Shown here piece by piece: positions 1 through 41,988 of a stretch of 47,683 nt of DNA. How positions within the stretch are numbered: position 1 is the stretch's first letter; the number at the start of each line of letters is the position of its first letter. The translations under genes and the position numbers were made by a program. The notes beneath the pieces were generated by a model that made no database searches, was not told the origin of the DNA, and saw nothing but the letters and a program-made list of their open reading frames with translations. This DNA is from Atractiella rhizophila (lineage: Eukaryota), in NCBI GenBank assembly GCA_021432655.1, contig MU271352.1, positions 32,601 through 80,283 of the forward strand. The letters run 5' to 3'.

Positions 1-187
1 GCGCAAGCACCTGCGTTGCGCGTCATATTGCACAGCCGCTAAACGTACAAGAAGCGGCCAGACAGAAGGAACACCCTATCACACAACAGCTCGCTTGTTT
101 CTACCCTTTGTTTTCCTATTTTCGTTTTTATCTTGTGGTATTTGTAGTTTTGGTCTTGTCCCGCACTCTACTTTCCCCCGCAACACA

Positions 188-633
188 TGGAGCGTTAACT
201 CCCTAAAACCCTAAACTGGCCACAACAAAACCACGTTATTCGTTGGCAAAACGCTTGACCCCACTCACTGAGTGGTTGTTTGACCAGCGGCTAGACAGGC
301 AACTCCTTGTCTGGCCGCGGAGCGAATCTGGATACAAGTTGTCACACTGATCCCTAAGTGGGTCGCTCCGCAGATCTCCTCATCCTGGAGAATTTCACTC
401 CCCCTCCCCTGGAGCGCTAACTCCCTCTTAAAAAACATTTACGCTGTAACCACTACCACGTTCTTGTGTTAACTCGTTAGCAGAAAACTGCTCCGCTGCT
501 TACCTGAGTGGTTGCTGGTTCAGCGGCTAAACAGGCAACTCCTTGTTCAGCCGCGGAACGGAACTGGATTCATAGTTTCTGATCCTAAAGTGGGCCGTTC
601 CGTATATCCCCACAACCTGGGGAATTTCACTCC
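188..633. repeat. Imperfect tandem duplication, two units of about 220 bp (188-401 and 410-633)
   Basis: Collinear shared blocks: tggagcg(t/c)taactccct, ctgagtggttg, cagcggcta(g/a)acaggcaactccttgt, gccgcgga, ctgatcc..aagtggg, cctgg(a/g)gaatttcactcc. Confidence 0.85.
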
Positions 634-1529
634 TTCTGGGAAGTCGCGCAAAAGCAGCTTCCAATGCCTTTGCGCGTAAACCCGCTAAAAACCGCCTCAA
701 GCCATACCTTAGCCCTGCTTGACGCTCTCCCACACGTCACACTATCAGAAAATACCGTAGGACACTCAAAAGATCTAGATACTACAACTAGGTGAGCAGG
801 AGTCTACCACTTATGGGAAACATAGCTTGCGCTATAAACTTTTGAGATAAAGCCCATGGCTTGGTAAAGGGTAGTTGTTAAAAAAGATGAAGGGTAAGGA
901 GTTAAGGTAAGTGGTTAAGGCCTCCACCAAACCCGTTGACCTGAGACGGTCCCTACAGCAGAAGCAACTGAAAAGCATAATCCGGGTGTACCTTGTGACC
1001 TACATAGAAGGTACTCCTACCGTTGAGCTCAAATTCCAACTCCCCTGGGTTTTGAACGTTTTGCGCTTTTCCCGGTACGGTAAACAGCAGGTTGAAAAAC
1101 TGTCCAGAGCAACTAAACTACAAAAAGCGCGAGTTGGTCTGCTTTAGCGGCTATACTATAAGCCCGCGGCCACACGCAAAAGACAGTATTACAAAACGGT
1201 ACTCTAGACGACGAACGAGCTCACGGCGAACACGAAGGGCCAGCCGCTGAACGTAGAAAAGCTGCTTAACGCGGTGGGCGCCCTTACAGGAGCAGCCTCT
1301 ACCCAAGTTTCCGGTACGCACCTATGGCCCAGGCCTATTTGGTTGCGAGCTCCATAATAAGCTTGGGTAGCTAGTGGGAGGAACGCCTGAGGGTCCTCCC
1401 CTAGACAGGGGAGTGTGAGTCCTGCATCACTCACTTTGCCATTGATCTCCCCACTCACCACAATGCCTTATGCCACCACGACACGATTTACACTTGTCGC
1501 CGCCTGGCAAATTCGCCGCTAATACGGAG

Positions 1530-3048
1530 TCACAAAACATACATTTCAAAGTTCAAAATCGCCGCTCCGAATAGACTCCTCACTATCACTACTACTCGAA
1601 GCGGAATCAGAATACACATCGAAATTGGAATTGTCATAGGCCTAGCCCCATCCTCCGCAGCACGTTCATCCTGCCTCCTTTTAAACAATTCCATTTGCAA
1701 CTCGGCGGCCTTAAGAGCATCCGCCGCCGCTTGCGCATTTAACCTGGCGGCCTCGAGCATTGTTTGTGCAAAATCCATGCTGAACGCTTCGGAGTACAAA
1801 CGGGCGGCGCTCAGCATAGAATGCGAAGGAGAGTCCTCGTCGGCGTCCGACACATTCTCATAATTGCTCTCAGCGAAAGCTGACGGACGCTTTCTCCCGT
1901 CGCCGACGCGTTTGGGGTGGAAGGTAGTCGACATCACGACCAGCATAGAGAGTTCCCGCAAATAACCCAAAGGCAAGACCTCACACCTCTTTCGAGAACT
2001 GTGACATCGCGAACAAACCCGACCGAACGCGGTTGCAACATGCCCAGCGGAGAAGTCACACACTTGAGACTCATTGTCAGCCTTAGCCTTCTTTTTCGCC
2101 GCTTTGACCGGCGCCGCTCGAATTTTCCCAGTACAATTACTGCATCGCTGCGTTCCGATGCTCGCTAACGTGGGGAGGATGCGCGGGTTCGCCCGAGGAG
2201 TCATGATAACCAATTCGAGCTCCAATTCACCCAGATTGATGTTCGCCGCAGCATGAGAATAGGCCTCGCGAGTACCTGGCCAGAAGTAGCGATATTTCGC
2301 CGCATCCAATTCCTTGTCGCCGATTCGCACTTTTCCGTCGCGCACTACAAATTCGGCGACCGGCGCACTGGCGAACGGATTTCGATCCCCCAACGCTGCA
2401 GGCAGAACAAAGGTTGTCGCAGTAACCAGATGGTCAGATAGGGTCCTCACAACCCCGACCTCAGGTCCTTTCAACGCCGAAATCGACTTTTGCGCTCGCA
2501 AATTTTCCTCCGCCACTCGTCGCTTATTTTCAAGCGCTACCCATTTGCGTTCCTCTTCTTCCTTTGCCAAGCGTTTTTCGTGTCAGACAAGAAAAGCTCT
2601 CGTTCTTTCCTTTGCAAAACAGGGTCGCCATTCGCCAACTCGGACGGCTGAAAACCGAGTTTCACCGCTTCCTCCTCGACGAGCGCCGCTTGTTCGGCCC
2701 AAAGACGAAGTTCATCACGCAATGCCTGCAGACCTTCCACAGGCATATGCAGAGGAAATGACAAAACCCGTCCATCACCGAAACCTTTGGCAGCCTCATA
2801 AGCCATTCGCACCTTCCCATCGCCGACGGGTTACCACACAAAATATACGAGACAAGAAAACTCACCTCTGCCTGCACCTCATCACAAAATTTGACATACA
2901 GAGGGTAGCACCTTTTCCCCCACTCCAGCACATCGGCGAAATGCCCAAAGTTCACCTCCTTCGCTTTCTCCACGTCCCAGAAAATGGTGCTCTCCTTCCT
3001 ATCCTTGTTCGCCAGAACGAAGTCGAAGAGTTGCGCATCGGTCGACAT
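1530..3048 (-). CDS. Antisense accessory gene of element A: spliced, apparently frameshifted, coiled-coil plus six-Cys (Zn2Cys6-like) protein of unknown function
   Basis: ATG at 3048. A phase-0 53-nt intron at 2865-2813 (GAG|gtgagt...gggaag|GTG) joins ORF 2662..3048 in frame to ORF 2537..2812. A 1-nt shift near 2575-2585 leads into ORF 1530..2570, which contains C-x2-C-x24-C-x14-C-x2-C-x6-C (2144-1983). Confidence 0.65.
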
Positions 3049-3160
3049 TTTTGCAAGAGTAGACGGAGGGTGATGGTGGTAGAACTGGAAAATTTTTCGC
3101 CCAAGCTAGCCGCAAACCTTAACTTTAAAATTCCGTGACTCACGTACACGAGTCAGAAAT

Positions 3161-3171
3161 TTGGGGGGTGT
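3161..3171 (+). other. Polypurine tract (plus-strand primer) of element A
   Basis: ttggggggtgt immediately 5' of the LTR start TGTCAGG at 3172. Confidence 0.7.
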
Positions 3172-3660
3172 TGTCAGGCTTGCCCCTACGCATTACCGAA
3201 ATGCACCATCTGAAGTCACGTGACCTACTTTACCATGCCATAGGACCACACGCCTGCCCATCGCCGCTTTGCTCACGTTCTCGCTGATCGCCGCCTTCCC
3301 CTGTCTCACACTAATCGCCGCTCAGCAAACCTTAACCATTTCGCCGGTCTGCACCGTCTCCATTATTGCTTTATTGTCCTTTCTCACTTGTACTGCTCAG
3401 TATGTCTTATTTCCGAGTTTCCTTTTATTGCTTTCCTGATCTAGCTATCTTACATGTTTCAAGAAACTTATGATACAGTTTATGGCAGTGCTCTTACATA
3501 TGGATATATACATCGAGATGTAGTGGTGGTGACCTCAGAGTATCCTCTTAGGTTTACCTCCACTACAGGTTAGTCTCCTCATGCCATACTATTCTCTTAG
3601 GTTTACCTCCACTACAGACGCATCGCCTATCGGCGACCGCACATAGTGTCAGCCCTAACA
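3172..3660 (+). repeat. 3' LTR of element A (489 bp)
   Basis: Starts TGTCAGG, ends CCCTAACA. TATA-like gatatatacat near 3504, direct repeat ctcttaggtttacctccactacag twice, palindrome gtcacgtgac at 3215-3224. Aligns end to end with the reverse complement of 4507-4989. Confidence 0.92.
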
Positions 3661-4506
3661 CTTGCCATCTGACTTGATTTGTGACAAACGGCGCTTGTTG
3701 TGAAATTCGACACATTGACTTCAAGCAAAAATCGTCCTGTCAGTTCAGCATGTCCCAAAACTTGGCACCAAAATCATGAGCTGTTTTAAAGCGGCGAACG
3801 AACGTTGCTGATCTACCTCCCAGACTCAGGAAGCCTTGTTGTTTGTTAGTTCATATAAAGGTCATGCGGAATCTGTCGCAAAGTGGTGGTAGAAATTAGT
3901 GAAACCGAGGAACATTCGGACTTCCTTCTTGTTTTTCAGTTCCGGCCAGTCCATCACTCCTGCGTCTTTTAGTGGTTCAATCCCTCTGCTGGAAATGATC
4001 AAACCTGGATACTCCACCTCATCTTGACACCAAACGTATTTCTGCAAATTTACGTAAAGCCCATTTTCACACAAAATTTGACAAACTTTTCGAACATGTT
4101 CCCAGTGTTCTTCTTCAGTCTCCGTCCTAATCAGGATATCGTAGATGTCTATGAAGATGAACGCAGCGGCAATTCGGCGATCATCATGCAGAAAATAGAG
4201 TTCAGGAAAGCCTGAACAGTCGCCAATGAGTTGCAGAGTCCAAAATACATCACTAACGGTTCGAAAAGTCCGTGATTAGTGCGAAATGCCGCTTTGTGCT
4301 TGTCTCCCTCTTTGATGTGAATGTTGTTGAAACCTTTTCTCAGGTCGATCTTGCTGAAGAATTTCTTACCAGAGACCATGGAGCAGAGGTCAGCTTGGAT
4401 GGGGAGTGGAGTTTTGTCTTTGACAGTGGCTTCATTCAACTTACCATAGTCGAAAAGGGGACGAAGTTCAGGTGTCCTTTCTGTGCTTAAAAAAGACGGA
4501 ACCTCC
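3661..4506 (-). pseudogene. pol: pol fragment: reverse transcriptase and RNase H N-terminus, disrupted
   Basis: ORFs 4149..4439 and 3862..4074 plus intervening frames. The catalytic [Y/F]xDD motif reads FIDIYDILI (two extra codons). Stops and frameshifts are present. An EVNVSNFTTSAV RNase H-like motif lies just before 3661. Confidence 0.92.
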
Positions 4507-4989
4507 TGTTAGGGCAAACACTATGTGCGGTCGCCGACGGGCGATGCGTCTGTAGTGGAGGTTAACCTAAGTGAATAGTATGGCATGAGAAGACTAACCT
4601 GTAGTGGAGGTAAACCTAAGAGAATACTCTGCCACCACTACATCTCGATGTATATATACATATGTAAAGGCACTGCCATAAACTGTAACACACGTTTCTT
4701 GAAACACGTAAGATAGCTAGATCGGGAAAGCAATAAAGGGAATACTCGGAAATAAGATGTACTGGGTAGTACTAGTGAGAAAGGACAATAAGGCGAACAT
4801 GGAGACGGCACAGACCGGCGAAATGTATAAGGTTTGTTGAGCGGCGATCGTGTGAGAAAGGGGAAAGCGGTGAACAGCACGGGCATGAGCAGAGCGGCGA
4901 TGGGTAGGTACGTGATGCCATGACGTGGTAAAGTAGGTCACGTGACTTCAGATGGTGGATTTCGGTAATGCGTAGGGGCAAGCCTGATA
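4507..4989 (-). repeat. Solo LTR of the element A family inserted in pol of element B (483 bp)
   Basis: Reverse complement is collinear with 3172-3660. Termini TATCAGG (mutated TG) ... CCCTAACA. Flanked on both sides by pol coding sequence. Confidence 0.92.
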
Positions 4990-5885
4990 GAGCGCCGCTT
5001 GTTCGTCTCTTTTCAAGGGGTAGACAGGAACAGCCTATGGTTGAGCTTCTGGTTTGAGGTTGATGGCATGGTCCCAAGGTCATCAAGGAGGAAGCGAGGT
5101 TTTGAATTTTTCGTCGTCGAAAATGTCTGCAAAATCGGCGATTTGCGTCGGTATTTCGACAACGCTCTTTGGTGTCATTGCCGCTACGTCTTTCACCAGT
5201 TTCTGCAATTTTGTCATGGCAGCACGTATTGAGGCAGAGGACGATGGAAGTTGGTCACGTGTGGTAGACACATCGACCGTGTTGCAACTGGTGGGGCAAC
5301 GAGAGAACTCAACTTTCCCTGACACCCAGTTAATCTCTGGGTTGTGGTGTCTTAGCCAGTCATGACCCAGAATCATGTCGACTGTCCCCAACTCTGCCAC
5401 CGCGAATTGCCAAACTTCATGATGAGCGGCGATCGAAATGGGTAAATAAGCGACAGAATGGATGGAACCTCCCTGATTGAGGGATCCGTCGATATTGTAA
5501 ACAGGCACTGGGGAAGGGAGTTGAGTGATGGGTAGGTTGTATTCAGAAACGAGTTTTGGAGAAATAAAGGAAGTGGTTGCCCCGCTGTCGACGAGCGCCG
5601 ATGTGGCACGTCGGCAATGGGAGTGTGGGTGATGGAAAGCGGTTCTGAGTTTCGTTTTTGAACTGACTAGGGATGCTGTTGTCAAACGTAAATGGACTTT
5701 GTCGTACATTTTTGCGACATCTGCGCATCTTTGTCTCCAAGATGGAAAACACAATTTTGGAAATGGGGAGTCTTGTTCGGGAGAAGGGAAATCTGCGCAA
5801 AGCGGCGCTTTGTTGGAAGTGATTTTTAGATGACGAAAATGAATTGCAAGTCGGCGACGGGACACTCCTTTCACCCATGGCCGTC
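4990..5885 (-). pseudogene. pol: pol fragment: retroviral-type aspartic protease and linker to RT
   Basis: ALVDSGATTSFIS, VYNIDGSLNQGGSI, DMILGHDWLRHHNPEINW in ORF 5083..6081. After a TGA it continues as PWDHAINLKP...PVYPL. Confidence 0.92.
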
Positions 5886-7176
5886 TCAAAAATCCTCCTC
5901 CAGATCCGATGATTGAGCGACACTTGTTTTCGGCGACCGGTCGGCGATTTGCGCAGATTGTCGTTCTTGTTCTACGAGACGAGTGTCGAAATATTCTCCT
6001 TGTGCATGAAGGTATTGCTCTTTGCTCATGGACATCTTGCATTCCTTCTCTCTGTGTCCGATCTTTTGGCATCTTCGACAACGAGGCGGTCTGAACTTCG
6101 TTGCCTCCACCTCCATATCGTTGGGGTCTTTAGCTTCATGAGGTTGCGAAGCGGCGATGGGCGACAAAGTGGCGCTCGGTCAGTACAGAGGCAGTCCGCT
6201 GTTGTCTTTCTGTTTCGTCGATTTTGAGTGATCTTTCTTTGCTGAAAGTGTATTTTGGGTTCCACGCGTCGCCAATGAGATGCCCCGAAAGAAGCTGGAA
6301 TACGCGAATTCTTCTGTGTCGATTCGCCGCGTTTTTTCCTTCCACTCTTCAAGGGACTTGCGGAAATCACCTTGTATCACTTTAAGGTACAAAGCAGGAT
6401 TAAGGCCCGTTTGAAGAAAAATGTGAGCACCTCATCATCAAAGTCTGCCTGATTTGCCAACTCTTCAAACTTGATGATGTAGGACTCCAGGTTGCCCTTC
6501 TGTTGCAGGAAGACAGTTTCGTCTGCGCAATAAGTTTGTGGTCAGTTTTGCAAAAATGCGATCTGAACTCCGACAAAAATTGCTCCCCCGAAATCTATTC
6601 CTCATTTTCGACAAGTCAGCGCAGTATCCCAGCGGCGAATTTTTCAGCATCTCATTCTTTCATATACAATAGAGTAAATAAGATTTTCGACTTTTCTGAA
6701 GCGAACTGTCCTGGGATGGCAGACGTGTAGACGTAAATTTCACGGAGAAAGGTCGGCACTGAGCTAGGTACTCCTTTGAAGATAGAGGGTGTGGCAAGTC
6801 TGATTCCAGCATCAGGCAAAACTTGTGCATTTTGAGGTATAGAGGGAGGAGAGTAAGTTTGGGGTATTGGGTCTGTTCATGATAAAAAGGGGGAGGTGGT
6901 TCCACTGTCTCTAGGAAGAGGCAGTCTGGAGTCCAGTAATTGTAAAATTCGGTCGTTTGTGTTCTGGACGTCGGACCTCAGTTGCGCAATTTCGTGCGCA
7001 TTGTGGGAGGTTTGTGCGTTTTGTTGGTTGAAATTTGCTATGAGGTCTTGTTCGATTTTTTTGAACTGCTTTTCGGTTGTGAGGTGTAGAGTTTGGAACA
7101 TCCTTTCTAAGCGATGGATGCGTTCTTCGCTCGTCGGCAATTCGCGCGTTTCCATATCTCCCCAAACCTCCAACAT
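5886..7176 (-). pseudogene. gag: gag with C-terminal CCHC zinc knuckle, frameshifted
   Basis: ATG at 7176 shortly after the LTR, a coiled-coil N-terminus, and KDPNDMEVEAT followed by CRRCQKIGHREKEC (C-x2-C-x4-H-x4-C) in ORF 5886..6167. Broken into several ORFs. Confidence 0.88.
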
Positions 7177-7203
7177 TTTTAAGTTTGGTTTTGAAAATGA
7201 GAG

Positions 7204-7213
7204 AGAGTATTCT
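7204..7213 (-). other. Putative self-priming primer-binding site (Tf1/sushi type)
   Basis: Minus-strand AGAATACTCT begins 2 nt after the LTR end. It is the exact reverse complement of AGAGTATTCT (7337-7328) inside the LTR, about 34 nt downstream of the TATA-like tatatataga. Confidence 0.7.
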
Positions 7214-7215
7214 TC

Positions 7216-7720
7216 TATTAGGGCTGGCACTATGTGCAGTCGCCGACGGGCGATGCGTCTGTAGTGGAGATAAACCTAAGAGCATGATATGACATGAAGA
7301 CGAACCTGTAGTGGAGATAAACCTAAGAGAATACTCTAAGGTCACCTCCACTACTCTTCGATCTATATATACAAGCAGAATAGCACTGCCACAGAAGCGT
7401 AGAGGAGAGCAGATGAAACATGTAAGAGAACTAAAAGGGGGAAGTGACAGTGGGATTACGTGGAGTAAATAAGAGGAGAATCGATACAAATGAGCTAAGT
7501 GGTGATGCAGGTGCAAATGGGCGAACGGGCAACTGGGCGCCGATTTGCACTGTGTGCAAATAGGCGACAGGAGACGCAGAGTGGCGACAGGCGCCGATTC
7601 GCAGGGAACACAAATGGGCGATAGGAGACGTAATCCGGCGAACGGGCGCCGATTTGCATAAGATGCAAACCTGACACAAGTGTAGTTGTGACGTCCTGGT
7701 TCTCTGACTATGCTGCGACA
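7216..7720 (-). repeat. 5' LTR of element B (505 bp)
   Basis: Minus strand starts TGTCGCAG (7720) and ends CCCTAATA (mutated CA). The 3' part (TATA, R, U5) matches the other LTRs. The 5' part differs and has three ggcgccgatt(t/c)gca repeats. Confidence 0.85.
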
Positions 7721-9090
7721 TGGCAAGAGGAATCTGGCCTCGAATTCGCCCAGTATGACGGTGCTCAAGTCCTTTCTATCAATGGCAAAGACCCTTGGGC
7801 AGTTGTTGATGAATATGCTGGAGTTTCTGGATCCTATTAAGGGTTAAGTTCTCAACAAAACAGCTTCTTTGCGGTTTATACGAAGTCTGCATTGGAATAT
7901 GGTGTCTGTCTTGCCCCATCTTCCTACCCACCATTGATGATTGATTTGCGATCCAGGATATAGAGTCGGGGAGTGCGCGGGGTGGTGGAACCCACCACCG
8001 TCAGACACGGTTGAGCTCACAGTATCAGTAAACGGAGCAGAAGAAACCATCACCGTCCACTACGTTTCACAGATTGCTTCCGATACTGTCGCATTCACAG
8101 ATTTCTGCTATGTATTGGACCACAACTGTCTCGCCAAGTCGACTACAATGGGGAACGGTCTTCTGCGACTTGCACCACCGCCGCTCCGAGCGTCCAGGGT
8201 AGTTCTCCCAATGCGACGGACAACACTGTGAACGAAAACGTAATGTTCTCCCTTCTCTTCTGAAGGAGGACGTTGATTGCCAAACTTGTTTGGACGGCGA
8301 AATCCCCCCGGCGGTTTGCGCGTCTTATCCCGCAAGAAGACGTTCATGCTCAGATCAATCACGCAGTTAACAAAATTGGCAGGTATCGATATTACCCTAC
8401 CTGATCGTTTTGCACCTACCACCCCTGTAATCAGAGGATCCGATGGTCCCGTATTATGCTAACCCTTTATGGTGCGGAGGATCTGCAAAATTCTTCCACT
8501 ATGACACCGACTCCCTTCATTTCCGAGCATCTAGCTGATCTGGACGCAGAGACGACCTTTTTTCTTGTCACGGCGATATTTGCTTTAACTATGTCACGCA
8601 AACCCAACCCCAGACTTCGCTCCATGGGACATGAGCAATATCATCCTTTTGGTAAATGGACGTTGCGCCAGGACATGCGCACTCTTCACGACTGCGATAA
8701 GAAAGCACGGTGTACGTACTCTCGTCGCAGGAGGGAAAGCCGGTCAGCCTCAACAGTATTGTGGAACTGTGGGAGGGGCATCCACGAGCCACAAGGTCAT
8801 CAACCATATATTGAAGGCTACAGGATTAAAGAATAATTTGGCTGCGCCGCCACATTTTATCTCTGATAGCTATCAAGGCGCCGTTCTCCAGTTGGCTTTG
8901 GAGTGGGAGGGTGCGAAAGTGGAGGAATGGATTGATCACGAGACTGATCTCACCATGGATCTGACTTTGGAAATGTACGCCATCCCTTTTAGTTGTAGGA
9001 GTTAATGCTGATAATGGCGATAGCGTCAATAAGTCTGAGAGCATCCGGAAAGCGGTTGCTAAACAGGTTTGGAACCTCGATGTTGCATGA
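7721..9090 (+). pseudogene. Fungal S41-family (tail-specific protease-like) peptidase pseudogene, truncated by element B
   Basis: The frame from 7721 reads WQEESGLEFAQYDGAQVLSINGKDPWAVVD...GSY* (TAA 7838-7840). The C-terminal block IILLVNGRCARTCALF...VAGGKAGQPQQYCGTVGG...EEWIDH matches basidiomycete S41 proteins, but the catalytic CAS(S/T)C serine is replaced by Arg. Frameshifts are present. Confidence 0.75.
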
Positions 9091-9656: not shown

Positions 9657-10412
9657 TTAACGTTCCAGCTCATTTCCTTCAAAGTCCTTAACAAAGGTCA
9701 TCAGGAAAGATCGGACGGCATCCTCGTCCTGGGGGGACAGTAGCGTATTTGGGTCCGTGTAGCCAAGCCGTTGTGATGGTTGCGCTGGCTGTGAGAAGGA
9801 CGGGGACGGATCGGAGACGTGGAAGGCAGAGGGGAAATCCCGCATAATGGACTGCAACGATTCATCATCATCTCCCACTTCCGCTTCACCGTCGCCTGCA
9901 CGTTTGCGGTCACCTAATATTCTCTCCGCCGATGGACTCGCATTTTGACGCGTGGAGGAAGGACTTGCACGGCGGGTGGACGAAGCGGAGGACGTCGTTG
10001 TGGGAGAAACCTTCCTAATTGCTTCCGTACCGTGACGTTGACTACTGGACGCTTGGGTGTCGGAATACATCGATGTTTGAGATTGAGGGTATGTGCAATT
10101 GATCTCCTCGATAGCCACCCTCCTGGTTCTGGCCAACGTCACGCATCTTGAGCAAGCCTTCCAGTTACCCGCATCAGCATTTGTCCTGTCAAAGAGTGGA
10201 AAAGGGAGATCACTTACCGGCCTTCCCGCGTCGCACTTCACCCTTCGAGCTTTACAATTGTTGCATGCCGTGTTCCTCTTCAATGTGTCCGGATTCGGAC
10301 GGCGTTGCAAAGGAAACTTAGATGGCGGGGGTGTGAACGTTGAGAGGCTTTTCGGGTTCTGTCCACTCATAGCGGGACAATGAACGGGGGAGTTGGAAGC
10401 GAACCCGAGCAT
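9657..10412 (-). CDS. Short Zn2Cys6 binuclear-cluster protein (paralogue 1)
   Basis: CNNCKARRVKCDAGRP|ACSRC-x15-C after removing an in-frame 60-nt intron (10217-10158, gtaagt...aag). Start is ATG 10412 or 10370. Confidence 0.82.
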   Translation of the reverse strand: MLGFASNSPVHCPAMSGQNPKSLSTFTPPPSKFPLQRRPNPDTLKRNTACNNCKARRVKCDAGRPVSDLPFPLFDRTNADAGNWKACSRCVTLARTRRVAIEEINCTYPQSQTSMYSDTQASSSQRHGTEAIRKVSPTTTSSASSTRRASPSSTRQNASPSAERILGDRKRAGDGEAEVGDDDESLQSIMRDFPSAFHVSDPSPSFSQPAQPSQRLGYTDPNTLLSPQDEDAVRSFLMTFVKDFEGNELER

Positions 10413-11883
10413 AGCAGGCGAAGAGAGGTATTGGATGGTCGGAAGGAGATGTAGGCGAGGAGTCCCTTTTATGCACGGTGGAGCAACGGTACCCAACACT
10501 GGTCCACCAAAATCACTCACCCGTCTACCGTCTATCGCCAAAATCTCGCCGGACTCCAATCTTCAAACGCAACAGAACCAGGACATAGCATGAACGGAGA
10601 CGAGAGGAGAGACAGTACCCAACCTTTAATGCTGTCTGCCTACGCCGACGTGGCTAGACGGAGTGCAGGACTTAGACATCAACATCCGCTTCACACGGCT
10701 CTTTATGAATGAGGAGAGAGGAGGGAGGCGCGATGACAAATACCTTAACTACCTCATCTCCTACTCACGGCTGAGGATGGAGCGACGGGCAAGTACAAAG
10801 TACACAGTGCAGTAAACTCCGGCTCCACTGCCTGAAGAGTGGTGAGCGGTGATGGTGGTGTTTCTCCAACTGGTGCAAAATGGTTCATATTCTTGCGTAT
10901 GCGAATGAGGAGAGGACGAGGACCGAAGAAGGTAAGTTCCCTGTCTTGGATACCACATAATAACCTCAGAAAAACATCACAAGCAATTGATATCAAATAT
11001 TCGGCCATGCTTCTTCTTTACCATCATACAGAAATCCAGATAGGAAAACTTGTCCACAATTACTGTCAAATGTCCATCTCCAATACTCCATGAAGAGAAG
11101 AAGATAGCATCCATGCAACTCGTAGTATCTCCAATCACCCTCGTAGTATCAAGATTAGTTCGAGCAAAGCTCCCATCAATCGCGGAGAGCGCTGACATCC
11201 CGCTATCCTTCTTTCTGTGAGCCCGGGGCATTGGGCCGCTCTTTGGAAATCTGGACGTCGTCATTTCGGCGGTCTGGACACAAGGACTTGATCCGGATCG
11301 AGAAAATAGATAATTCTGTCCGAAACAAGCTGACAAACTCATAAAACAATGCGCCAGAACGCCTCGTTTCGGACGTGTCACTTTTCCGGGGGAAGCCATT
11401 GTCTGCGATTGCAAACAGAAGGAAGGAGGACACGTCCCGACAGGAATGACGACACCATCCCTGGAGGTACAATACCTGGCTTCGTTGAGGTAGTCACAGA
11501 CTAAGCTACTGTGTGGCTGGCGGTTGATTTCGTTGATCCATAGAATCTGCTATAGAGCAATGTCATTTGCCTAACAGTCGTTGACTCCATACCATCCAGA
11601 GCATGATGAAATACATGGTTCGCGATTCATCACACCGCCTCTTTCAATTGCTTCTGTGACAGCAACGCACCGCGGCAGCCCCAACATACTCGCAATCCAG
11701 CCCTAAAAAACAGCAGCCTCGATCCAGAGATCGTATTGTACTCGTCGTTTTTGCCACTGTTTCACAGACCGACACAAATAACGAAACGACCACCTTCTCG
11801 CAGCATCACCTAGGTTCCCGTTCATTATCGCATACCATCCCATAACTGGCTAATCCATCCAAAGACGACACAACTCTCGAAAA

Positions 11884-14981: not shown

Positions 14982-16478
14982 AGATTACGCTCAAAAAATG
15001 GAGTGAGCGACAGTGCTAAACGATCAGATTGCTCGAAGTACCGAGAAACTTGAAGTGGATGGTGAACGTTGAAGATTCTAGGTACTATAGTTTGACTTGT
15101 TACTTTTGTTTCGTCCAGTGTCCTATAATTACAGAATCCCTGCGGTGGTTTATTTTGTTTTTCTCCAGCTCAATCCGGCTCGGTTATGTCAACCTCGTTT
15201 GTTTTTCAGTCTCTTACTTTGCAGCATACCCATTTCAATATCTGCCAATCAACACGCTGGAAGCAAACAATGATAAACAGTTAAATATCTTCATTAGCAA
15301 TGCTTTTTTTTATTCCTAACCTGACACAGTCTTCCACTTGAACTTGAACCTGCAACCACTTCAAGTTAAAGGGGGAAGAAGCTTCTTCAGCGATTCCGAT
15401 AGGAATGCCATCTCTTCTTCCGGATAATACCATTGTGCCGGGGCACCGTTTGCTCCTTCAATTTGGTCAGAGGACGTCAGTCATAGAAGCTCGAAGGAGA
15501 ATCCTAGATGGTCCTGGAAAGAGGGGGATAAAACCGTGCTAGTGGATGATGTACCATCTAGGTTAGTACCTCTTTCATCAGTGTTAGTATCATGTAGGGG
15601 ATGTTTTCTACTCTGCTGAAGCCGAAAATAGTGGTGCTACATTTAAATTATCACCCCTAGTTCTCGTTTCGTATGCCGATGTGGGCTTCCAAGTACCAGG
15701 CTTGCCTCAGCCTCAGGAACTTGAACTGTTGAATGGTCTAGAATTTGGGCTATTGCTCCCCGACATGTTCAAGAAATGGTTTAGCTGAAGTAGCACTCTA
15801 CAGAATCGACATCCTTTGGTTCTGTAGATATAACTATTCCGCCTCCAATTTAACAATGCAAAAGGTTTCTTCCTCGTACGCTTTTTCTTGGCTGCTTGCC
15901 AAATTCTTGGCCAGTAAGAGGTTTGTTGATTGTTCCAAGAAAATATGATCTGAAGCGCTGGAGCATCTGACAGCACAGTATTTGGCAACGCCTAATTGAG
16001 GTGACGGAGACTGCTTCTATCTGCGCTGCAGGCTTGTCCAAGTCTTCTAGGAATATAATGTGCTCTGTCCAATGCGCCGCTCTTGGCTTTCCGTTTTCGG
16101 TCCTCACAGACTTTAGGCTAATACCGTTTTGGTCCGTCCTACAGCACTTAATCCTGTTCTTCAAACGTTCTTATCCTATTCAACGTCGGGTTTAAAGAAC
16201 TGGATTTACAGTGCTCTGACGGCATAACAGTTGGATCTACCCCAACATGCCGTGTCGACAACGGGCATGATGCTTATTGGCTGCAGGGCTGGAAGTGAAA
16301 GGTCACTATGCTAGACCCTGTTTTGATCGACGGATCCCGGGCTCTGAAGCTGCAGGAGGCCAGGGGTGCAAAGGTTTCAAAAGTGCTACATTTCCACTTT
16401 TGTTCCGTGAGCATTCGAAGGCACTCAAGCAGGCAAGCTTTTCCTACATCTTTCGGAGACGCATTGATCTATGACAGA

Positions 16479-17804
16479 ATGCATTCTTCACTTCCTCCTG
16501 AACTCTGGCGATACATTTTCACCTTCCTCCTCCCTGCTCCTGGAATTGCACATTATAGAGAAGACCACCGCTCACGCGACCGTCTGACTGGACTCTATGC
16601 CCATGTCCTGGCTTCCCAGAGAGCGTTCCGAGCCCGTCTCTTCTCCTGCGCTCTGGTCTGTCGCTTCTGGTCTGTCATCGCCCAGAAATTGCTCTTCGCC
16701 ACCACCACATTGTCGATCCGGGGGCAGCAAAGTGTGGATTGGCTTGATGGATTGGGAGAGAAACAATCATGGTTGAGGAAAGTAGAGTTGAAAGTTCGAA
16801 CCGGAAGGAGAGAGGTGTATTCTGTGCTTTTCGACAGCTTATTCCAGCATCTGACAAGGATCCGACATTGGACTATCAATGCCCATGAGGCAGATCCGCA
16901 CTCATTCGATCTGGTCCAGATCCTCGTTATATTTTGCCGTCGTTCTGAAAGTCAAACCTCCCGCAAGTTTACACTCGAAATCTGGTTCCCGTTCCATTAT
17001 CCTTCCATGTCTTACCCATTCTTCACACATGAAGACGAGGAAAAAATCGCAATCCTGCTACCCCAAATTTCCGGGGTGGAGGAATTAGTGCTAAGGATGG
17101 AGACCTTGGAGTGTGCATCAAAACTCTTTTCTCCCTCCACATTACCGATGACGCTCGTCGATCAGGTCAAGCTGCCTTTCAAAGACCTTAAACGTCTCGC
17201 CATTTCGGCTCACCACATTATCTTGACCAATGCTCTCGGTTATTTCGCTTCATTCTTTCAAAAAGCAAACGAGGTGCGGAACGGAGGTACTCTTGAAGGC
17301 TTATCGCTCATTCCCCTTGGCGAAGTCGCAGAAGTTCAGTACGAACCTTTGAGCACGGCGCTAGAAACTTTTATTCGAGGTGGTCTAACCAGTTTCATGC
17401 TGGATGCTAACGGCGGTGGACCAGCAGAGAAAGGAGATGGAAGGCTGATGGATTGGTTCTCAGAAATGCTTTTCCGGATGGAAACTCTCGAGAAGCTCGT
17501 CGTTCGAAATCTCGACTGCCTCTTCAGCGACTCGGAGAGCAATCTCCTGCCTTCTTATCCTATGCTCTCTCTTAGCCGGCTGCCACCATTATCACCCGCA
17601 ACGTCACGATCTCTCCGCCGGCGAGAGGCTCGACAGAAGTTCCTCAACTCGGTACCAGATGGTGTCAAGGTCTTGGAGTTCAATGTCCTCACTTTTGATC
17701 AAAATGTGGTCGCAGAAATCAACAGAGGATACGGAAAGAGATGGAGTGGGCTTAAAATGCTTGTATTACCAGATCATGCTGCTGAGATTACTCCAACATC
17801 CTGA
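16479..17804 (+). CDS. F-box-like protein, 441 aa, intronless (paralogue 1)
   Basis: N-terminal LPPELWRYIFTFL...LFSCALVCRFWSVIAQKLLF followed by degenerate leucine-rich (LxxLxL) segments. The start is chosen by alignment with 28556..29857. Confidence 0.85.
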   Translation: MHSSLPPELWRYIFTFLLPAPGIAHYREDHRSRDRLTGLYAHVLASQRAFRARLFSCALVCRFWSVIAQKLLFATTTLSIRGQQSVDWLDGLGEKQSWLRKVELKVRTGRREVYSVLFDSLFQHLTRIRHWTINAHEADPHSFDLVQILVIFCRRSESQTSRKFTLEIWFPFHYPSMSYPFFTHEDEEKIAILLPQISGVEELVLRMETLECASKLFSPSTLPMTLVDQVKLPFKDLKRLAISAHHIILTNALGYFASFFQKANEVRNGGTLEGLSLIPLGEVAEVQYEPLSTALETFIRGGLTSFMLDANGGGPAEKGDGRLMDWFSEMLFRMETLEKLVVRNLDCLFSDSESNLLPSYPMLSLSRLPPLSPATSRSLRRREARQKFLNSVPDGVKVLEFNVLTFDQNVVAEINRGYGKRWSGLKMLVLPDHAAEITPTS

Positions 17805-28555: not shown

Positions 28556-29857
28556 TTAAATTATCCAACCGCCATCACCGTAAGCATCTAGTCTCCATCC
28601 GTCCAATTCAGAGCTACAATCCGGCAAGATTATTGTCGCGTGCGAACCATACTTTGCAATGCGTTGCCTAACAACATCGACTAAAGCCTCCTCTGCAGAG
28701 AGAGAATCGAACTCAAGCCTAATGACACGCGTCGGTATCGCGCGAAGGAGTCTCTCTCTTGGGTCGGATTGTGGGTAAGGCTCAGCAGCAGGAGGCGGCG
28801 ACCTTCGCATAGAAGGATAAGCAGATTGGGTACCGCTGTTAGTGAAGAGACAATCTAAGTTGCGAAGAACGAGCTTTTCGAGAACCGTTATCCGGGGTAG
28901 GACGGCTGCAAGCCAGTCCATAACCAAATAGTCACCCTTCTCGACGTCTAGCATGAAGCCATGCAACCCTCCATGTTTATTGAAGATGTCGAGACATTGC
29001 GTCAAGGAGTCGCAATGCTCTGTCTGGAGTTCCCCGAGCGGTATGAGCGATATTTCTTGCAGTCTGGCAGGTACCGACCCAGGTTCTACCAAGGAAGCGA
29101 GATAGGCGAGCGTGTCCACCAGCAATGAGGGATGGGCAGAAATGGCGAGTCGTTGGACGTTTCTAAACGGGGTTGGTTCCACATCGACCCGTGCGGGTCG
29201 ACTTGAAGGCGAGAACAGCTTTGTTCCACATTCTAGACTCTTCATCCTCAACACCAACTCCTCCATCCCATCGATCTGAGGCAACAAAGCAGCGATTCTC
29301 TTCTCGTCCTCGGTGGAGAAAAAGGAGTAAGTCATAGACGGGTAGTGCAACGGAAACCAAATTTCGAGCGTGAAGTTTGTTGTGTTCCTCTGAGGACGAT
29401 CACGGAAGGAAGAGAGGATATGGACGAGGTCGAATGCTTCAGGCTGCGCATCGTATGCGTAAAGAATCCAGTGCCTGACGCCAGTTGCGGACGCGAATAA
29501 TCGCTCGAAAACTAAGGAGTAGTCCTCCTTCCTTCCAGTTCGAAACCCCACCTCGACTTTCCTCAGCCAGTCCACTTTCTTTCCCATGCCTTCAATCAAG
29601 TTCAACCTTTGCGGCTGGCTGATGATAAAGGTTGTGGTGGTAAATAGAAGCTCTTGAGCGATGACAGACCAAAAGCGACACACTAAGGAGCAGGAGAGGA
29701 GATTATCCCGGAAGGCTCGTTGGGAAGTGAGGACGCGGGAATAGAGTCCCGTGAGGCGGTCGCGTGAGCGGTGGTCTTCGCCATAGCGAGTGATGGCTGG
29801 AGCGGGAAGGAAGAAGGTGAAAATACGACGCAAAAGTTCAGGTGGGAGAAAATCCAT
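28556..29857 (-). CDS. F-box-like protein, 433 aa, intronless (paralogue 2)
   Basis: MDFLPPELLRRIFTFFLP...LLSCSLVCRFWSVIAQELLF. Shares EDHRSRDRLTGLY, FTLEIWFPxHYPSM, EELVLRM and LEKLVxRNLDCLF with 16479..17804. Confidence 0.87.
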   Translation of the reverse strand: MDFLPPELLRRIFTFFLPAPAITRYGEDHRSRDRLTGLYSRVLTSQRAFRDNLLSCSLVCRFWSVIAQELLFTTTTFIISQPQRLNLIEGMGKKVDWLRKVEVGFRTGRKEDYSLVFERLFASATGVRHWILYAYDAQPEAFDLVHILSSFRDRPQRNTTNFTLEIWFPLHYPSMTYSFFSTEDEKRIAALLPQIDGMEELVLRMKSLECGTKLFSPSSRPARVDVEPTPFRNVQRLAISAHPSLLVDTLAYLASLVEPGSVPARLQEISLIPLGELQTEHCDSLTQCLDIFNKHGGLHGFMLDVEKGDYLVMDWLAAVLPRITVLEKLVLRNLDCLFTNSGTQSAYPSMRRSPPPAAEPYPQSDPRERLLRAIPTRVIRLEFDSLSAEEALVDVVRQRIAKYGSHATIILPDCSSELDGWRLDAYGDGGWII

Positions 29858-31435
29858 ATTTCAAGCTTAAAACAAGGAATCAATAACAATTAGACAATAC
29901 CGAGTTCACACCTACCTGTCATCACTTAAGTAGGGGAATAAACAACGTTATCAGTGAGAGGACTGATTTTTAAACCCAATGCTACTTTATGACAACGAAT
30001 GCAGACCCGGCGTCGGTGCTGTGTGAAGGAGAAGACCATCATGTTCCGTCATGTCCTCCGACCGTGGCATGTTTCCCGGTACCAGTGCAAGTCTTCAGGA
30101 GTCGGCACTTCCTTTTCGTGTTCCTTGGTATTCAGGCCTCGGTGTAAGTCACCGACTATCGTTTGGTTGATTACCAAGGTGACATAATCGCCATGGTGGC
30201 AGATGGAGGTTAGAAATAAGGGTCTCCTCTTTAGGTGGAGGGGACGCACTGAAATCAGGATAGAGGAACGAAAGGATTGAATCTGAAGATAAAGTACGAT
30301 GGGCACTCAGGCTGAAATTTCACCTGGTGAACATGATCGATGCATATTCCTACGGGCTCTAGATCAATGTACTTGTGATGTGAGCAGATCATCAAGCATG
30401 GTGAATGGGGGCAACATGGGTTACCCCAAACTTGTTCATAAGCAATCGTTCATTATTTGTCGCGTTACTGAAGAGCTAACGTCCTCGTGTTGACGACGGA
30501 TATCATCTTACAACAAAAGCCACCCAAACGCCAAAGAGTGCACAACCCATTGAACTGAAAGTTGATGGAAGTAAGACCAGGACGGCGTTTCATTGTCCAA
30601 AAGGCTTACGGGTTGACACCTTTCAATACCAACGTGCCATCCTTGCAATTCGCAACTTCGCCAACTTCTGTTGGTGCTCACTCAACGCTTCCAAGTCTCT
30701 CTTCATTTATTGTCTTTGGTGTAAAGATACAAGCAGACTCCGAGACACAAAGATCGCTCAAGGGTGTCCAGAGATCAAGGCTCCGACCGGAGGCCCACAT
30801 TTTGGTGGGCTGGGGAGCTTCCACGAATCAAGCAATCAAGCGACCAACTTGAACCAACAACCAGGGTCCCTCGCAAGCGGCTGAGCTCTGGCGATTAGGC
30901 AGTTTATAGGAGGAACTCAGCCGATAGTTTAGGCGGCTACGCTAGTTAGGAGGAGAGATTTGAAGTCAACTGGACAACAGGCAATTTGCTGGTCACTATT
31001 TGTTTGCGGCGTCCTGCAACTAAAGGTGAGCTCTATATCTTTGAAAACTGGGAGTTCGTTCTGTAAACAATCACTACATTTTGTCTCTTTATCGCCCTTC
31101 TGCCTTGGATACCTGTGGAGCTCTCAGATAGAAGTGAGCAGCCCAGCTCCACGCGCCCAATCCCAACACACTGCTATTGTTCTCAAACCAAGCGAATGAT
31201 AAGACATGCACGCGAACGAGTAGTCTCGCTCTTTGAGCCATGCGCTTCCGTGCAGACAGAAACTTTTCAGCCTTTCTACATGAATCCGAAAAGCCGTGAT
31301 ATTGACCATGATTAATATATTTCTCATCTACTCTTTCCCTGATACATGTGGAAGTGAGAGGATAAGCAGTTTGTGGCAAGCTCATTAACTGACAAACTTA
31401 TGCTGCCTTAAAGTGTCATATTACAGTCATTCAAC

Positions 31436-41799: not shown

Positions 41800-41866
41800 G
41801 ACGTCTCCTGAGCCCTAGGAAAAATTACGAAGGTAGAAGTCGACAGCCTGTTATGAAGCATGTTCC

Positions 41867-41988
41867 TTTATAAGCTGGTACGAATATATTTCTATCCTTG
41901 AAGCAGTTGCAGGAAGCTCTGAGAAACCCCTTTCAACCTGTGGGTAAATTGGGAAGCGTCGCAAAATGGCTCAGAAGGAAGACCCACC
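41867..41988 (-). promoter_or_regulatory. TATA box and conserved upstream blocks of DUF6533 copy 1 (mirrored at 44173-44300 for copy 2)
   Basis: Plus-strand tttataag, ggaagctctga and ggctcagaagga(a)gacccacc recur at near-identical spacing upstream of copies 1 and 2. Confidence 0.6.

What the first reader, a model, noticed from the sequence alone, without database searches (positions are those of the whole stretch)
1530..3171. LTR retrotransposon carrying a spliced antisense accessory gene with an expanded Zn2Cys6-like motif
Seen: just inside the PPT and 3' LTR of element A, a gene starts at 3048 on the opposite strand. A canonical 53-nt intron (2865-2813) fuses two ORFs in frame. After one apparent 1-nt lesion it continues into a 346-codon ORF with charged coiled coils and C-x2-C-x24-C-x14-C-x2-C-x6-C, the long loop being Lys-rich (VKAAKKKAK). 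Known: an intron survives retrotransposition when it is antisense to the element's genomic RNA; antisense extra ORFs occur in plant Tat/Retand gypsy elements; some transposons encode sequence-specific anti-silencing proteins (Arabidopsis VANDAL VANC). Inference: this is an element-encoded nuclear DNA-binding regulator of roughly 490 aa, expressed from an antisense promoter in or near the 3' LTR, possibly an activator or anti-silencing factor. The region still looks CpG-rich by eye, whereas the neighbouring RT shows many CpG-type changes.
Basis: partly seen in the sequence, partly recalled or inferred. Interest (0 to 1): 0.82.

Follow-up and report, generated by a model that had tools for sequence, protein, structure and literature searches.

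The report
Backwards intron-bearing gene inside fungal retrotransposon
A repeated gene of unknown family, still carrying its intron, lies backwards just inside the end of a gypsy-type retrotransposon in the fungus Atractiella rhizophila; such antisense extra genes are already known from other retrotransposons, and this copy is broken.

Summary
On the minus strand an ATG at 3048, a 53-nt GT..AG intron (2865-2813), a 1-nt loss in an A-run (2574-2578) and an ORF running to the stop at 1530 give a product of about 488 aa. It contains C-x2-C-x24-C-x14-C-x2-C-x6-C. The organism is Atractiella rhizophila. Six further gene models on other contigs (64-95% identical) share the start and the exon junction and read through the A-run, so this copy is frameshifted. 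The gene is a dispersed repeat. It ends 125 nt from a G-rich tract that abuts a 487-nt LTR in the opposite orientation. Two more copies of that LTR flank a degenerate chromovirus-like gag-PR-RT next door.

Not shown: pol upstream of the gene in this copy, expression, selection, or any kinship to Zn2Cys6. Pfam, PDB, 1.84 billion protein representatives, the Atlas and AlphaFold all gave nothing. No copy seen is intact.

It is best read as a new fungal example of the known antisense additional ORF between pol and the 3' LTR (Boty brtn, Grande, RIRE2, Retand). It resembles HTLV-1 HBZ only by analogy. The function is inferred. Interest is moderate.

The parts
2866..3048 (-). Exon 1 of the antisense gene: ATG at 3048, 61 codons (MSTDAQLFDF...)
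   Evidence: tblastn of P0002-P0006 residues 1-35/62 gives 87-91% identity.
2813..2865 (-). 53-nt spliceosomal-type intron (GTGAGT...GTAAC...AAG)
   Evidence: Models P0002 and P0004 join the same codons, and P0005 translates the intron sequence. There is no RNA evidence.
2579..2812 (-). Exon 2, the part upstream of the frameshift (VRMAYEAAKGFGDG...ELFLSDT)
   Evidence: tblastn of P0002 residues 61-140 gives 88.8% identity.
2574..2578 (-). A5 run (T5 on the + strand) that is one base short: the frameshift of this copy
   Evidence: Paralogues read DTKKRLAKEEEERK. Contigs with an extra T behind 2573: 1 in X1 and 3 in X2.
1530..2573 (-). Rest of the coding region to the TGA at 1532-1530: helix, central domain, Cys cluster, C-terminal helix. 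The last ~38 codons may be out of frame.
   Evidence: P0001 is 100% identical and P0002-P0007 are 64-95% identical. AlphaFold helices lie at ORF residues 2-37 and 252-310.
1983..2144 (-). Six-Cys cluster C-x2-C-x24-C-x14-C-x2-C-x6-C, with a Lys-rich loop at 2082-2108
   Evidence: No Pfam, PDB or Atlas family matches it.
3049..3173 (.). 125-nt spacer between the gene's ATG and the LTR. It holds TGACTCA at 3136-3142 within an inverted repeat TGACTC..GAGTCA, a TATA-like TTTTAAAG (minus strand), and the G-rich PPT-like tract GGGGGGTGT at 3163-3171.
   Evidence: A G-run length variant at 3163 occurs in 8 X1 contigs and 4 X2 contigs. The promoter role is inferred.
3174..3660 (+). LTR (TGTCAGG...CCCTAACA) in + orientation, antisense to the gene: the 3' LTR of the gene-bearing element
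   Evidence: Loose ends of 20 X1 contigs begin behind 3660 with low agreement, which marks a repeat boundary.
1334..1529 (.). Repeated stretch beyond the gene's 3' end ('X'), with a second GGGGAGTGT motif at 1408-1416. Elsewhere in organism A, 1415 is joined directly to the LTR start.
   Evidence: (joint 1415|7676, opposite strands, one contig each in X1 and X2, sides 54 and 60).
3661..4506 (-). RT fragment of neighbouring element B, cut at 3660/3661 by the LTR above
   Evidence: Pfam RVT_1. tblastn of P0011 residues 375-657.
4507..4987 (-). Solo LTR inside element B, replacing about 21 codons of pol
   Evidence: P0011 residues ..353 and 375.. on its two sides.
4988..7217 (-). Degenerate gag (zinc knuckle), protease and start of RT of element B
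   Evidence: Pfam RVP_2 at 1.6e-10. zf-CCHC scores 20.2 bits, just under its cut-off.
7218..7676 (-). 5' LTR of element B
   Evidence: Loose ends of 16 X2 contigs begin behind 7676.

Best explanation
Window 1334-3660 is the 3' end of a degenerate, 5'-truncated copy of a chromovirus-type Ty3/gypsy LTR retrotransposon of Atractiella rhizophila. It is nested in the RT of a second, oppositely oriented copy. Between the internal region and the PPT/3' LTR it carries a 1.5-kb gene on the opposite strand. This is an 'additional ORF' of the antisense pol-to-3'LTR type.

Because the gene is antisense to the element's genomic RNA, its 53-nt intron is never removed from that RNA. The intron is therefore copied with the element.

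Intact copies would be transcribed leftwards, from the 125-nt spacer or the LTR edge, and spliced. They would give an orphan protein of about 490 aa. It has two long helices (likely oligomerisation), Lys/Arg-rich stretches (likely nuclear import) and a six-Cys cluster (likely zinc binding). Most probably it acts in the nucleus on nucleic acid or chromatin in the element's own interest.

This copy is a pseudogene, with one frameshift and perhaps two.

Shown: gene structure, multi-copy status, orientation, and adjacency to the PPT-like tract and LTR. Inferred: position relative to pol, promoter, zinc binding, localisation and role.
For: - Gene, intron, frameshift and Cys spacing.
- Seven gene models on seven contigs, all named A. 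rhizophila, 64-100% identical, with the same start and the same exon junction.
- The gene is a dispersed repeat. At the six listed gene positions, 8-16 X1 contigs and 7-12 X2 contigs carry the non-window letter. Of 4362 X1 contigs laid on 1-8000, 1176 were >=99% alike, 1303 were 95-99%, 1242 were 90-95% and 641 were under 90%.
- LTR orientation is fixed by element B (LTR, then gag, PR, RT on the minus strand). The gene is antisense to LTR 3174-3660.
- A G-rich tract abuts the LTR start. Contigs with a G-run variant at 3163 (8 in X1) show that this junction region is itself repeated.
- B's pol homology ends exactly at 3661, so the LTR is an insertion boundary. Its left side is not B.
- The joint 1415|LTR-start in X1 and X2, together with GGGG[AG]GTGT found only at 1408 and 3163 in 1-8000 on both strands, brackets the gene by element-linked sequence.
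- The joint 1333|5044 places the left flank next to pol in + orientation in X1 and X2: (weak).
- Intron retention in at least 4 copies fits antisense carriage.
- Long helices have moderate confidence (pLDDT about 67-87).
- Precedents exist for this architecture, including one in a fungus: passages in PMC7264820, PMC11963269, PMC8365987 and PMC4227169.
Against: - No pol, integrase or chromodomain homology lies anywhere in 1-3173 on either strand. No LTR similarity lies in 1-3173 either. So in this copy the gene is not seen between pol and the LTR.
- The gene-LTR link in other copies rests on single contigs. Most of that output was cut: 63 joints and 622 loose ends were not shown.
- A 'short form' without the gene exists, so the gene is not in every copy.
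- No intact copy was seen. P0002 is frameshifted in the central domain and lacks the Cys region. P0003, P0004, P0005 and P0007 are truncated. P0006 has Cys2 changed to Tyr and is chimeric.
- The 6 window-specific differences that were listed change 5 codons, all non-synonymously. That is neutral decay in this copy.
- There is no homologue outside this species: 3 hits among 1.84 billion representatives, all of the same family.
- No family was found for any part.
- AlphaFold gives the Cys region pLDDT below 50.
- The last three Cys are seen in this locus only.
Confidence: 0.55

Rival explanations
1. The gene is carried by the LTR element, but only as a passenger. It would be a captured or transduced cellular or foreign gene with no role for the element, now decaying. 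Or only its antisense RNA matters, for example as a source of dsRNA or siRNA against the element.
For: No intact copy was found among the 7 models. The window-specific changes are non-synonymous. A gene-less short form exists. The review literature raises both transduction and a dsRNA role for antisense aORFs (PMC7264820, passages).
Against: No cellular homologue exists that could be the source: 1.84 billion representatives gave only this family. The start codon, exon junction and long stretches (for example KYRYFWPGT, invariant in 8 of 8 rows) are kept across copies 64-95% identical. Captured genes are usually in one or a few copies (PMC7264820 abstract). Here many diverged contigs cover the gene.
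Confidence: 0.22
2. The gene module is not part of the LTR retrotransposon. It would belong to another dispersed repeat or to a lineage-specific multi-copy gene family. It would lie next to a solo or 3' LTR only because this is a nest of transposons.
For: No pol lies upstream in this copy. The repeated block starts abruptly near 1334, with unrelated sequence to the left. This locus is demonstrably a nest: a solo LTR sits inside B, and B is cut at 3661. Another copy (P0006) has a different transposon-like piece fused to it (weak DUF4218, E 3.3e-4, below the cut-off).
Against: A G-rich PPT-like tract lies exactly at the LTR edge. The joint of 1415 to the LTR start in the same orientation occurs at a second copy of the same 9-nt motif, expected about 0.1 times in 16 kb and found twice. 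No terminal inverted repeats bound the module. Retention of the intron together with antisense orientation is what retrotransposition predicts.
Confidence: 0.2
3. The ORF is not a gene. It would be an open frame arising by chance in repeated DNA.
For: No family, no confident fold and no RNA evidence. A 282-codon open frame also exists on the opposite strand, at 2290-3138.
Against: Frame-preserving conservation runs across an intron and over about 450 codons in 7 models. Cys are clustered, the helices are amphipathic and charged, and a canonical intron restores the frame.
Confidence: 0.03

Closest known systems
Boty-like Ty3/gypsy chromoviruses of Botrytis cinerea and Sclerotinia with the antisense gene brtn (Zhao et al. 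2011, Virology 417:248). I did not read the paper itself. I saw only its citation and short passages about it in PMC7264820, PMC8365987 and PMC4227169.
   Same: A fungal gypsy element with gag, zinc knuckle, PR, RT (IN and chromodomain in relatives) and an extra gene antisense to gag-pol near the 3' LTR.
   Different: That host is an ascomycete; this one is Pucciniomycotina. No sequence relation was tested or found: Pfam gave nothing here and brtn was not fetched. Here the gene has an intron and a six-Cys cluster. I do not know whether brtn has either.
Plant antisense additional ORFs between pol and the 3' LTR (aORF-3R): maize Grande gene23, rice RIRE2, Silene Retand with the TRP28 domain (PMC7264820 and PMC11963269, abstracts and passages)
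   Same: Position next to the 3' LTR, antisense orientation, own promoter proposed, products of unknown family, some nuclear or predicted to bind DNA. Retand also has tandem repeats in the same region.
   Different: Those are plant non-chromovirus lineages with 3-6.5 kb between pol and the LTR. TRP28 (PF04195) did not match here. The 188-633 repeats of this window could not be tied to the element.
HTLV-1 HBZ (antisense gene of a retrovirus; from passages in PMC11963269 and PMC7264820, its splicing recalled from memory)
   Same: Works alike in outline: an antisense gene beside or in the 3' LTR, spliced, with a nuclear regulatory product.
   Different: HBZ is a bZIP protein of an animal retrovirus. 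No bZIP or other family was detected here. This is analogy only.
Fungal Zn(2)-Cys(6) binuclear cluster (Pfam Zn_clus PF00172; canonical spacing recalled)
   Same: Six Cys, with C-x2-C at both halves and C-x2-C-x6-C at the end. Basic residues follow the first pair.
   Different: The loops are 24 and 14 residues, against 6 and about 5-12. There is no profile match even at E<=10 on the isolated segment. Resemblance by spacing only.
VANDAL21 VANC anti-silencing protein of Arabidopsis (recalled; nothing read or tested)
   Same: A transposon-encoded factor thought to act on the element's own chromatin.
   Different: VANC belongs to a DNA transposon of plants. There is no evidence of any kind here for anti-silencing.

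Membership tests
Antisense additional ORF between pol and 3' LTR of an LTR retrotransposon (aORF-3R type: brtn, gene23, RIRE2, Retand) | Lies inside the element, next to the PPT and 3' LTR | tested here: met
   The ATG is 125 nt from the LTR start, and the G-rich tract abuts the LTR. The LTR family is confirmed by two further copies.
Antisense additional ORF between pol and 3' LTR of an LTR retrotransposon (aORF-3R type: brtn, gene23, RIRE2, Retand) | pol of the same element lies beyond the ORF's 3' end | tested here: inconclusive
   No pol homology in 1-3173, so this copy is truncated or different. There are only indirect hints from the joints 1415|LTR start and 1333|pol in + orientation.
Antisense additional ORF between pol and 3' LTR of an LTR retrotransposon (aORF-3R type: brtn, gene23, RIRE2, Retand) | Orientation opposite to gag-pol and the LTR | tested here: met
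   The LTR sense is fixed by element B (LTR-gag-PR-RT on the minus strand). LTR 3174-3660 is + and the gene is -.
Antisense additional ORF between pol and 3' LTR of an LTR retrotransposon (aORF-3R type: brtn, gene23, RIRE2, Retand) | Present in most copies of the family, conserved like the other element proteins | tested here: inconclusive
   The gene is multi-copy: 7 models on 7 contigs and 8-16 contigs per listed site in X1. But a gene-less junction exists, no intact copy was seen, and no whole genome is held.
Antisense additional ORF between pol and 3' LTR of an LTR retrotransposon (aORF-3R type: brtn, gene23, RIRE2, Retand) | Transcribed from its own antisense promoter | not testable with these tools
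   No RNA run was available. TGACTCA and TATA-like motifs in the spacer are only suggestive.
Zn(2)-Cys(6) binuclear cluster (PF00172) | Match to the family profile | tested here: not met
   Zn_clus is absent from the hmmscan lists at E<=10 for the 76-aa Cys segment and for the whole ORF. The best hit was DUF2039 at E 0.029, below its cut-off.
Zn(2)-Cys(6) binuclear cluster (PF00172) | Canonical spacing C-x2-C-x6-C-x5-12-C-x2-C-x6-8-C (recalled) | tested here: not met
   Observed: C-x2-C-x24-C-x14-C-x2-C-x6-C.
Zn(2)-Cys(6) binuclear cluster (PF00172) | All six Cys conserved among relatives | tested here: inconclusive
   Alignment A1, independent copies only. Cys1 is kept in 4 of 4 (window, P0003, P0006, P0007). 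Cys2 is kept in 3 of 4 (Tyr in P0006). Cys3 is kept in 2 of 2. Cys4-6 are covered by this locus only.
Ty3/gypsy chromovirus (the element family that owns the LTR) | gag zinc knuckle, aspartic protease and RT in that order between LTRs | tested here: met
   Element B: RVP_2 at 1.6e-10, RVT_1 at 6.6e-11, and zf-CCHC at 20.2 bits against a cut-off of 20.8. tblastn gives collinear hits.
Ty3/gypsy chromovirus (the element family that owns the LTR) | Integrase with a C-terminal chromodomain | tested here: inconclusive
   Not present in the window. 13 of the 18 nearest longer polyproteins carry both rve (PF00665) and chromo (PF00385), but they are only 31-49% identical and from other sources.

The most novel reading that the evidence does not exclude
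A lineage-restricted fungal chromovirus has evolved its own spliced antisense gene. The gene encodes a new kind of zinc-cluster, coiled-coil nuclear protein that recognises the element's LTR or internal repeats and switches the element on or shields it from silencing. This would be a fungal counterpart of HBZ or VANC, with no sequence relative anywhere.
Probability: 0.12. Interest if true: 0.7.

Novelty: new member of a known kind. Interest (0 to 1): 0.4.

Why it matters
Antisense extra genes of LTR retrotransposons are widespread in plants and known from one ascomycete family, yet none has an established function. A basidiomycete example has three useful features. It has a clear intron, which makes sense and antisense transcripts easy to tell apart. 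It has a compact Cys cluster that is easy to mutate. Its host is a culturable root endophyte. Together these would give a tractable system for asking what such genes do. It also flags seven 'hypothetical protein' models of A. rhizophila as transposon-derived, mostly broken copies. As it stands, this is one more, degenerate, member of a known architecture.

Tried and rejected
- Whole genome: none is held. All-copy collection, flanks, target-site duplications and dN/dS were therefore impossible.
- RNA: no RNA holder was listed, so the splice junction could not be tested.
- Read laying: bins 1-1068 had no cover. That says nothing about whether 1-1068 belongs to the element. Summed depths were not used as copy numbers.
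- Metagenome scans: the protein-based scan matched 196 pattern stretches and confirmed none. A degenerate DNA pattern for the invariant KYRYFWPGT gave 0 matches.
- Distant homology gave nothing usable:
  - Pfam at E<=0.1 and E<=10.
  - PDB profile search, best E 1.1.
  - phmmer against 1.84 billion representatives, 3 hits, all the same family.
  - 'shorter' search, P0007 only.
  - ESM Atlas: best 0.82 for the whole ORF and 0.85 for the Cys segment, both unnamed. A cluster with DUF3716 on 28% of its members scored 0.81, which is only a lead.
- AlphaFold2 on two shallow alignments gave mean pLDDT 44.9 and 44.2. Confidence was too low for a fold search, so none was run.
- Linking the gene to pol through polyprotein models: the 18 longer relatives of B's protease ORF are only 31-49% identical (the listing names only one organism, Trametes cinnabarina; no row is named A. 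rhizophila). tblastn with three of the 18 (P0008, P0011, P0016) finds no pol in 1-3173.
- 1336-1700, 2900-3173 and 1-1335 against the three LTR copies: only noise-level local alignments. Direct or inverted termini around the module: none.
- rc(5040-5110) against 1270-1340: no similarity. The 1333|5044 joint is therefore not an alignment artefact.
- Tail of P0002 beyond residue 409: no match in the window at E<=1e-3. A looser search printed only the P0001 rows, so it adds nothing.
- Earlier findings of this scan: none for this genome or sequence, and one unrelated hit by words.
- Complex prediction, Rfam and RNA models were not used.
- Supplements of the cited papers were not opened.
Full report
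**What is there.**
- The ATG is at 3048 and exon 1 has 61 codons.
- A 53-nt intron (2865-2813) starts GTGAGT, has a GTAAC branch-like site and ends AAG.
- Exon 2 continues in frame. Its frame is lost in an A5 run (2574-2578). From there a 350-codon stop-to-stop ORF runs to the TGA at 1532-1530.
- Read through, the product is about 488 aa.
- Cys lie at ORF residues 147, 150, 175, 190, 193 and 200. That is C-x2-C-x24-C-x14-C-x2-C-x6-C, with VKAAKKKAK in the long loop.
- CpG observed/expected is 1.25 in the gene, 0.80 in the neighbouring RT fragment, 1.02 in PR-gag and 0.86-0.89 in host DNA.

**Whose gene it is.**
- A word-indexed search of 5.8 billion proteins returned six proteins, all named Atractiella rhizophila.
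- One is the model of this very locus (P0001, 100% identical). Five lie on other contigs (P0002-P0006, 64-95%).
- An exhaustive phmmer run over 1.84 billion cluster representatives found only three hits, all of the same family, adding P0007. A 'shorter' search added nothing.
- The family is therefore confined, as far as these libraries go, to this species.
- The paralogues share the start MSTD. P0002 and P0004 join the same two codons across the intron, and P0005 translates the retained intron.
- P0002-P0006 (5 of 7 models) read DTKKRLAKEEEERK across the place where the window is one A short; P0001 and P0007 splice over that place. Contigs with the extra base exist in runs X1 and X2.
- The splice is thus supported by annotation models and frame conservation, not by RNA.

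**It is a dispersed, decaying repeat.**
- Contigs of two coded DNA runs of one organism (X1, X2) were laid on 1-8000 at 80% likeness or more. There were 4362 and 2817 of them, from over 99% to under 90% alike.
- At the six listed positions inside the gene, 8-16 X1 contigs and 7-12 X2 contigs carry a letter other than the window's.
- Those six differences fall in five codons, and all change the amino acid towards what the paralogues have. This copy has drifted.
- No model is intact. P0002 is frameshifted and lacks the Cys region. P0003, P0004, P0005 and P0007 stop early. P0006 has Cys2 changed to Tyr and continues into an unrelated piece with a weak DUF4218 match.
- Conservation of the Cys cluster can be scored only in part. 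Cys1 is kept in 4 of 4 independent copies, Cys2 in 3 of 4 and Cys3 in 2 of 2. Cys4-6 are seen at this locus only.

**Relation to the LTR retrotransposon.**
- The 487-nt repeat at 3174-3660 (TGTCAGG...CCCTAACA) recurs inverted at 4507-4987 (87.7%) and at 7218-7676 (about 85% over the part that aligns).
- On the minus strand, 7676-3661 reads LTR, gag with a zinc knuckle, protease, a solo LTR that replaces about 21 codons, then RT. This is a degenerate element B.
- The nearest full polyproteins carry RT, RNase H, integrase and a chromodomain.
- B's pol homology ends exactly at 3661, at about residue 657 of a 1310-aa relative. So LTR 3174-3660, which is in + orientation, marks an insertion into B.
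- Its left neighbour is not B. It is the 125-nt spacer and the gene, which is therefore antisense to that LTR.
- The spacer ends in AAATTTGGGGGGTGT right at the LTR edge, as a polypurine tract would. Contigs with a G-run length variant there (8 in X1, 4 in X2) show that this junction region is itself repeated.

**Two joints bear on the far side of the gene.**
- One contig in each of X1 and X2 joins + strand ...1415 to the first base of the LTR in sense orientation (sides 54 and 60).
- The motif GGGG[AG]GTGT occurs only twice in 1-8000 on both strands, at 1408 and at 3163.
- So elsewhere in that organism a 'short form' exists: X, G-tract, LTR. In the window the 1.76-kb gene module sits between two copies of the G-tract.
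- A second pair of contigs joins ...1333 to pol, in + orientation, at about residue 336. No similarity explains this away.
- This suggests that at the left edge of the repeated block the reads and the assembly, or two haplotypes, differ. It also suggests that a + oriented pol may lie there.
- Both are single-contig observations. Most joints and loose ends of that output were not shown.

**What speaks against the reading.**
- In the window itself there is no pol, integrase or chromodomain homology anywhere in 1-3173 on either strand. There is no LTR-like sequence there and no terminal repeat of another kind.
Nothing ties the 188-633 repeats to it.

**What the protein is.**
- No Pfam family matches any piece at E<=0.1. 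On the isolated 76-aa Cys segment at E<=10, Zn_clus does not appear.
- The PDB profile search gave nothing, with best E 1.1.
- The Atlas gave only unnamed clusters at 0.82-0.85, and a DUF3716-bearing cluster at 0.81, which is a lead at most.
- AlphaFold2 with the shallow family alignments gave mean pLDDT 44.9 and 44.2.
  - Only long helices have moderate confidence: ORF residues 2-37 and 252-310, and P0004 residues 86-176.
  - The Cys region is below 50.
  - No fold search was justified.
- 'Zn2Cys6-like' therefore remains a spacing resemblance that fails both the profile and the canonical loop lengths.
- A zinc-binding role for six clustered Cys, nuclear import through the Lys/Arg-rich stretches and oligomerisation through the helices are reasonable inferences, not results.

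**How it most likely works.**
- I read it as an antisense additional ORF of a chromovirus-type LTR retrotransposon (confidence 0.55).
- Its intron survives retrotransposition because it is antisense to the genomic RNA.
- It would be transcribed from the spacer or LTR edge. TGACTCA at 3136-3142 and a TATA-like motif are there.
- Its product would be a nuclear, zinc-binding, oligomeric protein serving the element.
- This copy is dead.
- Rivals:
  - a carried but functionless passenger, or an RNA-only role (0.22);
  - an unrelated repeat that merely neighbours the LTR in a transposon nest (0.20);
  - a chance ORF (0.03).

**Comparison with what is known.**
- Antisense ORFs between pol and the 3' LTR are described for maize Grande, rice RIRE2, Silene Retand and Phaseolus PvRetro13.
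- Outside plants they are described for Boty of Botrytis and Sclerotinia (PMC7264820, passages). Boty-like elements have gag, ZnF, PR, RT, IN and chromo domains plus brtn (PMC4227169, passage).
- In Retand, 97% of clusters carry an antisense TRP28 ORF, and half have tandem repeats in the same region (PMC11963269, abstract and passages).
- I did not see the original brtn paper or its sequence.
- I made three literature searches. They found no paper describing an antisense gene in an LTR element of Atractiella or other Pucciniomycotina. They were not exhaustive.
- The finding is a new member of a known kind. The new points are the host lineage, the orphan protein with its Cys cluster, and an explicit intron.

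**Verdict.** Novelty is modest, and the function is open.

Noticed in passing
window 40545-46802: Three head-to-tail copies of a 2.3-2.8-kb unit, 60-83% alike in the pieces found. ORFs there have no Pfam family.
   Followed up: no
window 9657-10562 (-): A host ORF with a weak Zn_clus match (E 7.3e-4, 20.0 bits, just under the cut-off of 21). An unusually long stretch lies between its third and fourth Cys. It is a genuine-looking but atypical Zn2Cys6 gene 6.5 kb from the finding.
   Followed up: partly
window 16299-17804 (+) and 28556-29860 (-): Two F-box-like ORFs in inverted orientation (354-nt arms, 72% complementary). They flank 12.6 kb that holds a large helicase-type gene with AAA_11, AAA_12 and an RZ-type zinc finger.
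   Followed up: no
window 188-633: Two direct copies of a 232-236-nt unit, 78-83% alike, with CCCTAA-like words nearby. I found nothing that does.
   Followed up: partly
window 1333/1334: X1 and X2 contigs join 1333 to pol (about residue 336, + orientation) instead of to 1334. This may be an assembly collapse or a strain or haplotype difference at the left edge of the transposon nest.
   Followed up: partly
window 4507-4987 (-): A solo LTR inside element B's pol, in the same orientation as B. About 21 codons of pol are missing at the site and no obvious target-site duplication is present.
   Followed up: partly
window 6408, loose end in X2: Two X2 contigs that match gag from 6408 onward are preceded by CCCTAA repeats. 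So a copy of this element abuts a telomere-type repeat somewhere in that organism.
   Followed up: no
P0006 residues 227-579: One paralogue's model continues into an unrelated sequence with a weak DUF4218 match (E 3.3e-4, below the cut-off). That domain is recalled as transposase-associated. Probably another transposon was inserted into that copy.
   Followed up: partly
window 1673-1941, 2096-2284, 5256-5543 and others: Runs labelled as other organisms (X7, X4) hold low-depth contigs 95-98% identical to the gene, pol, the LTR and even the unique flank 7685-7851. The fungus or a close relative may be present in those samples.
   Followed up: no
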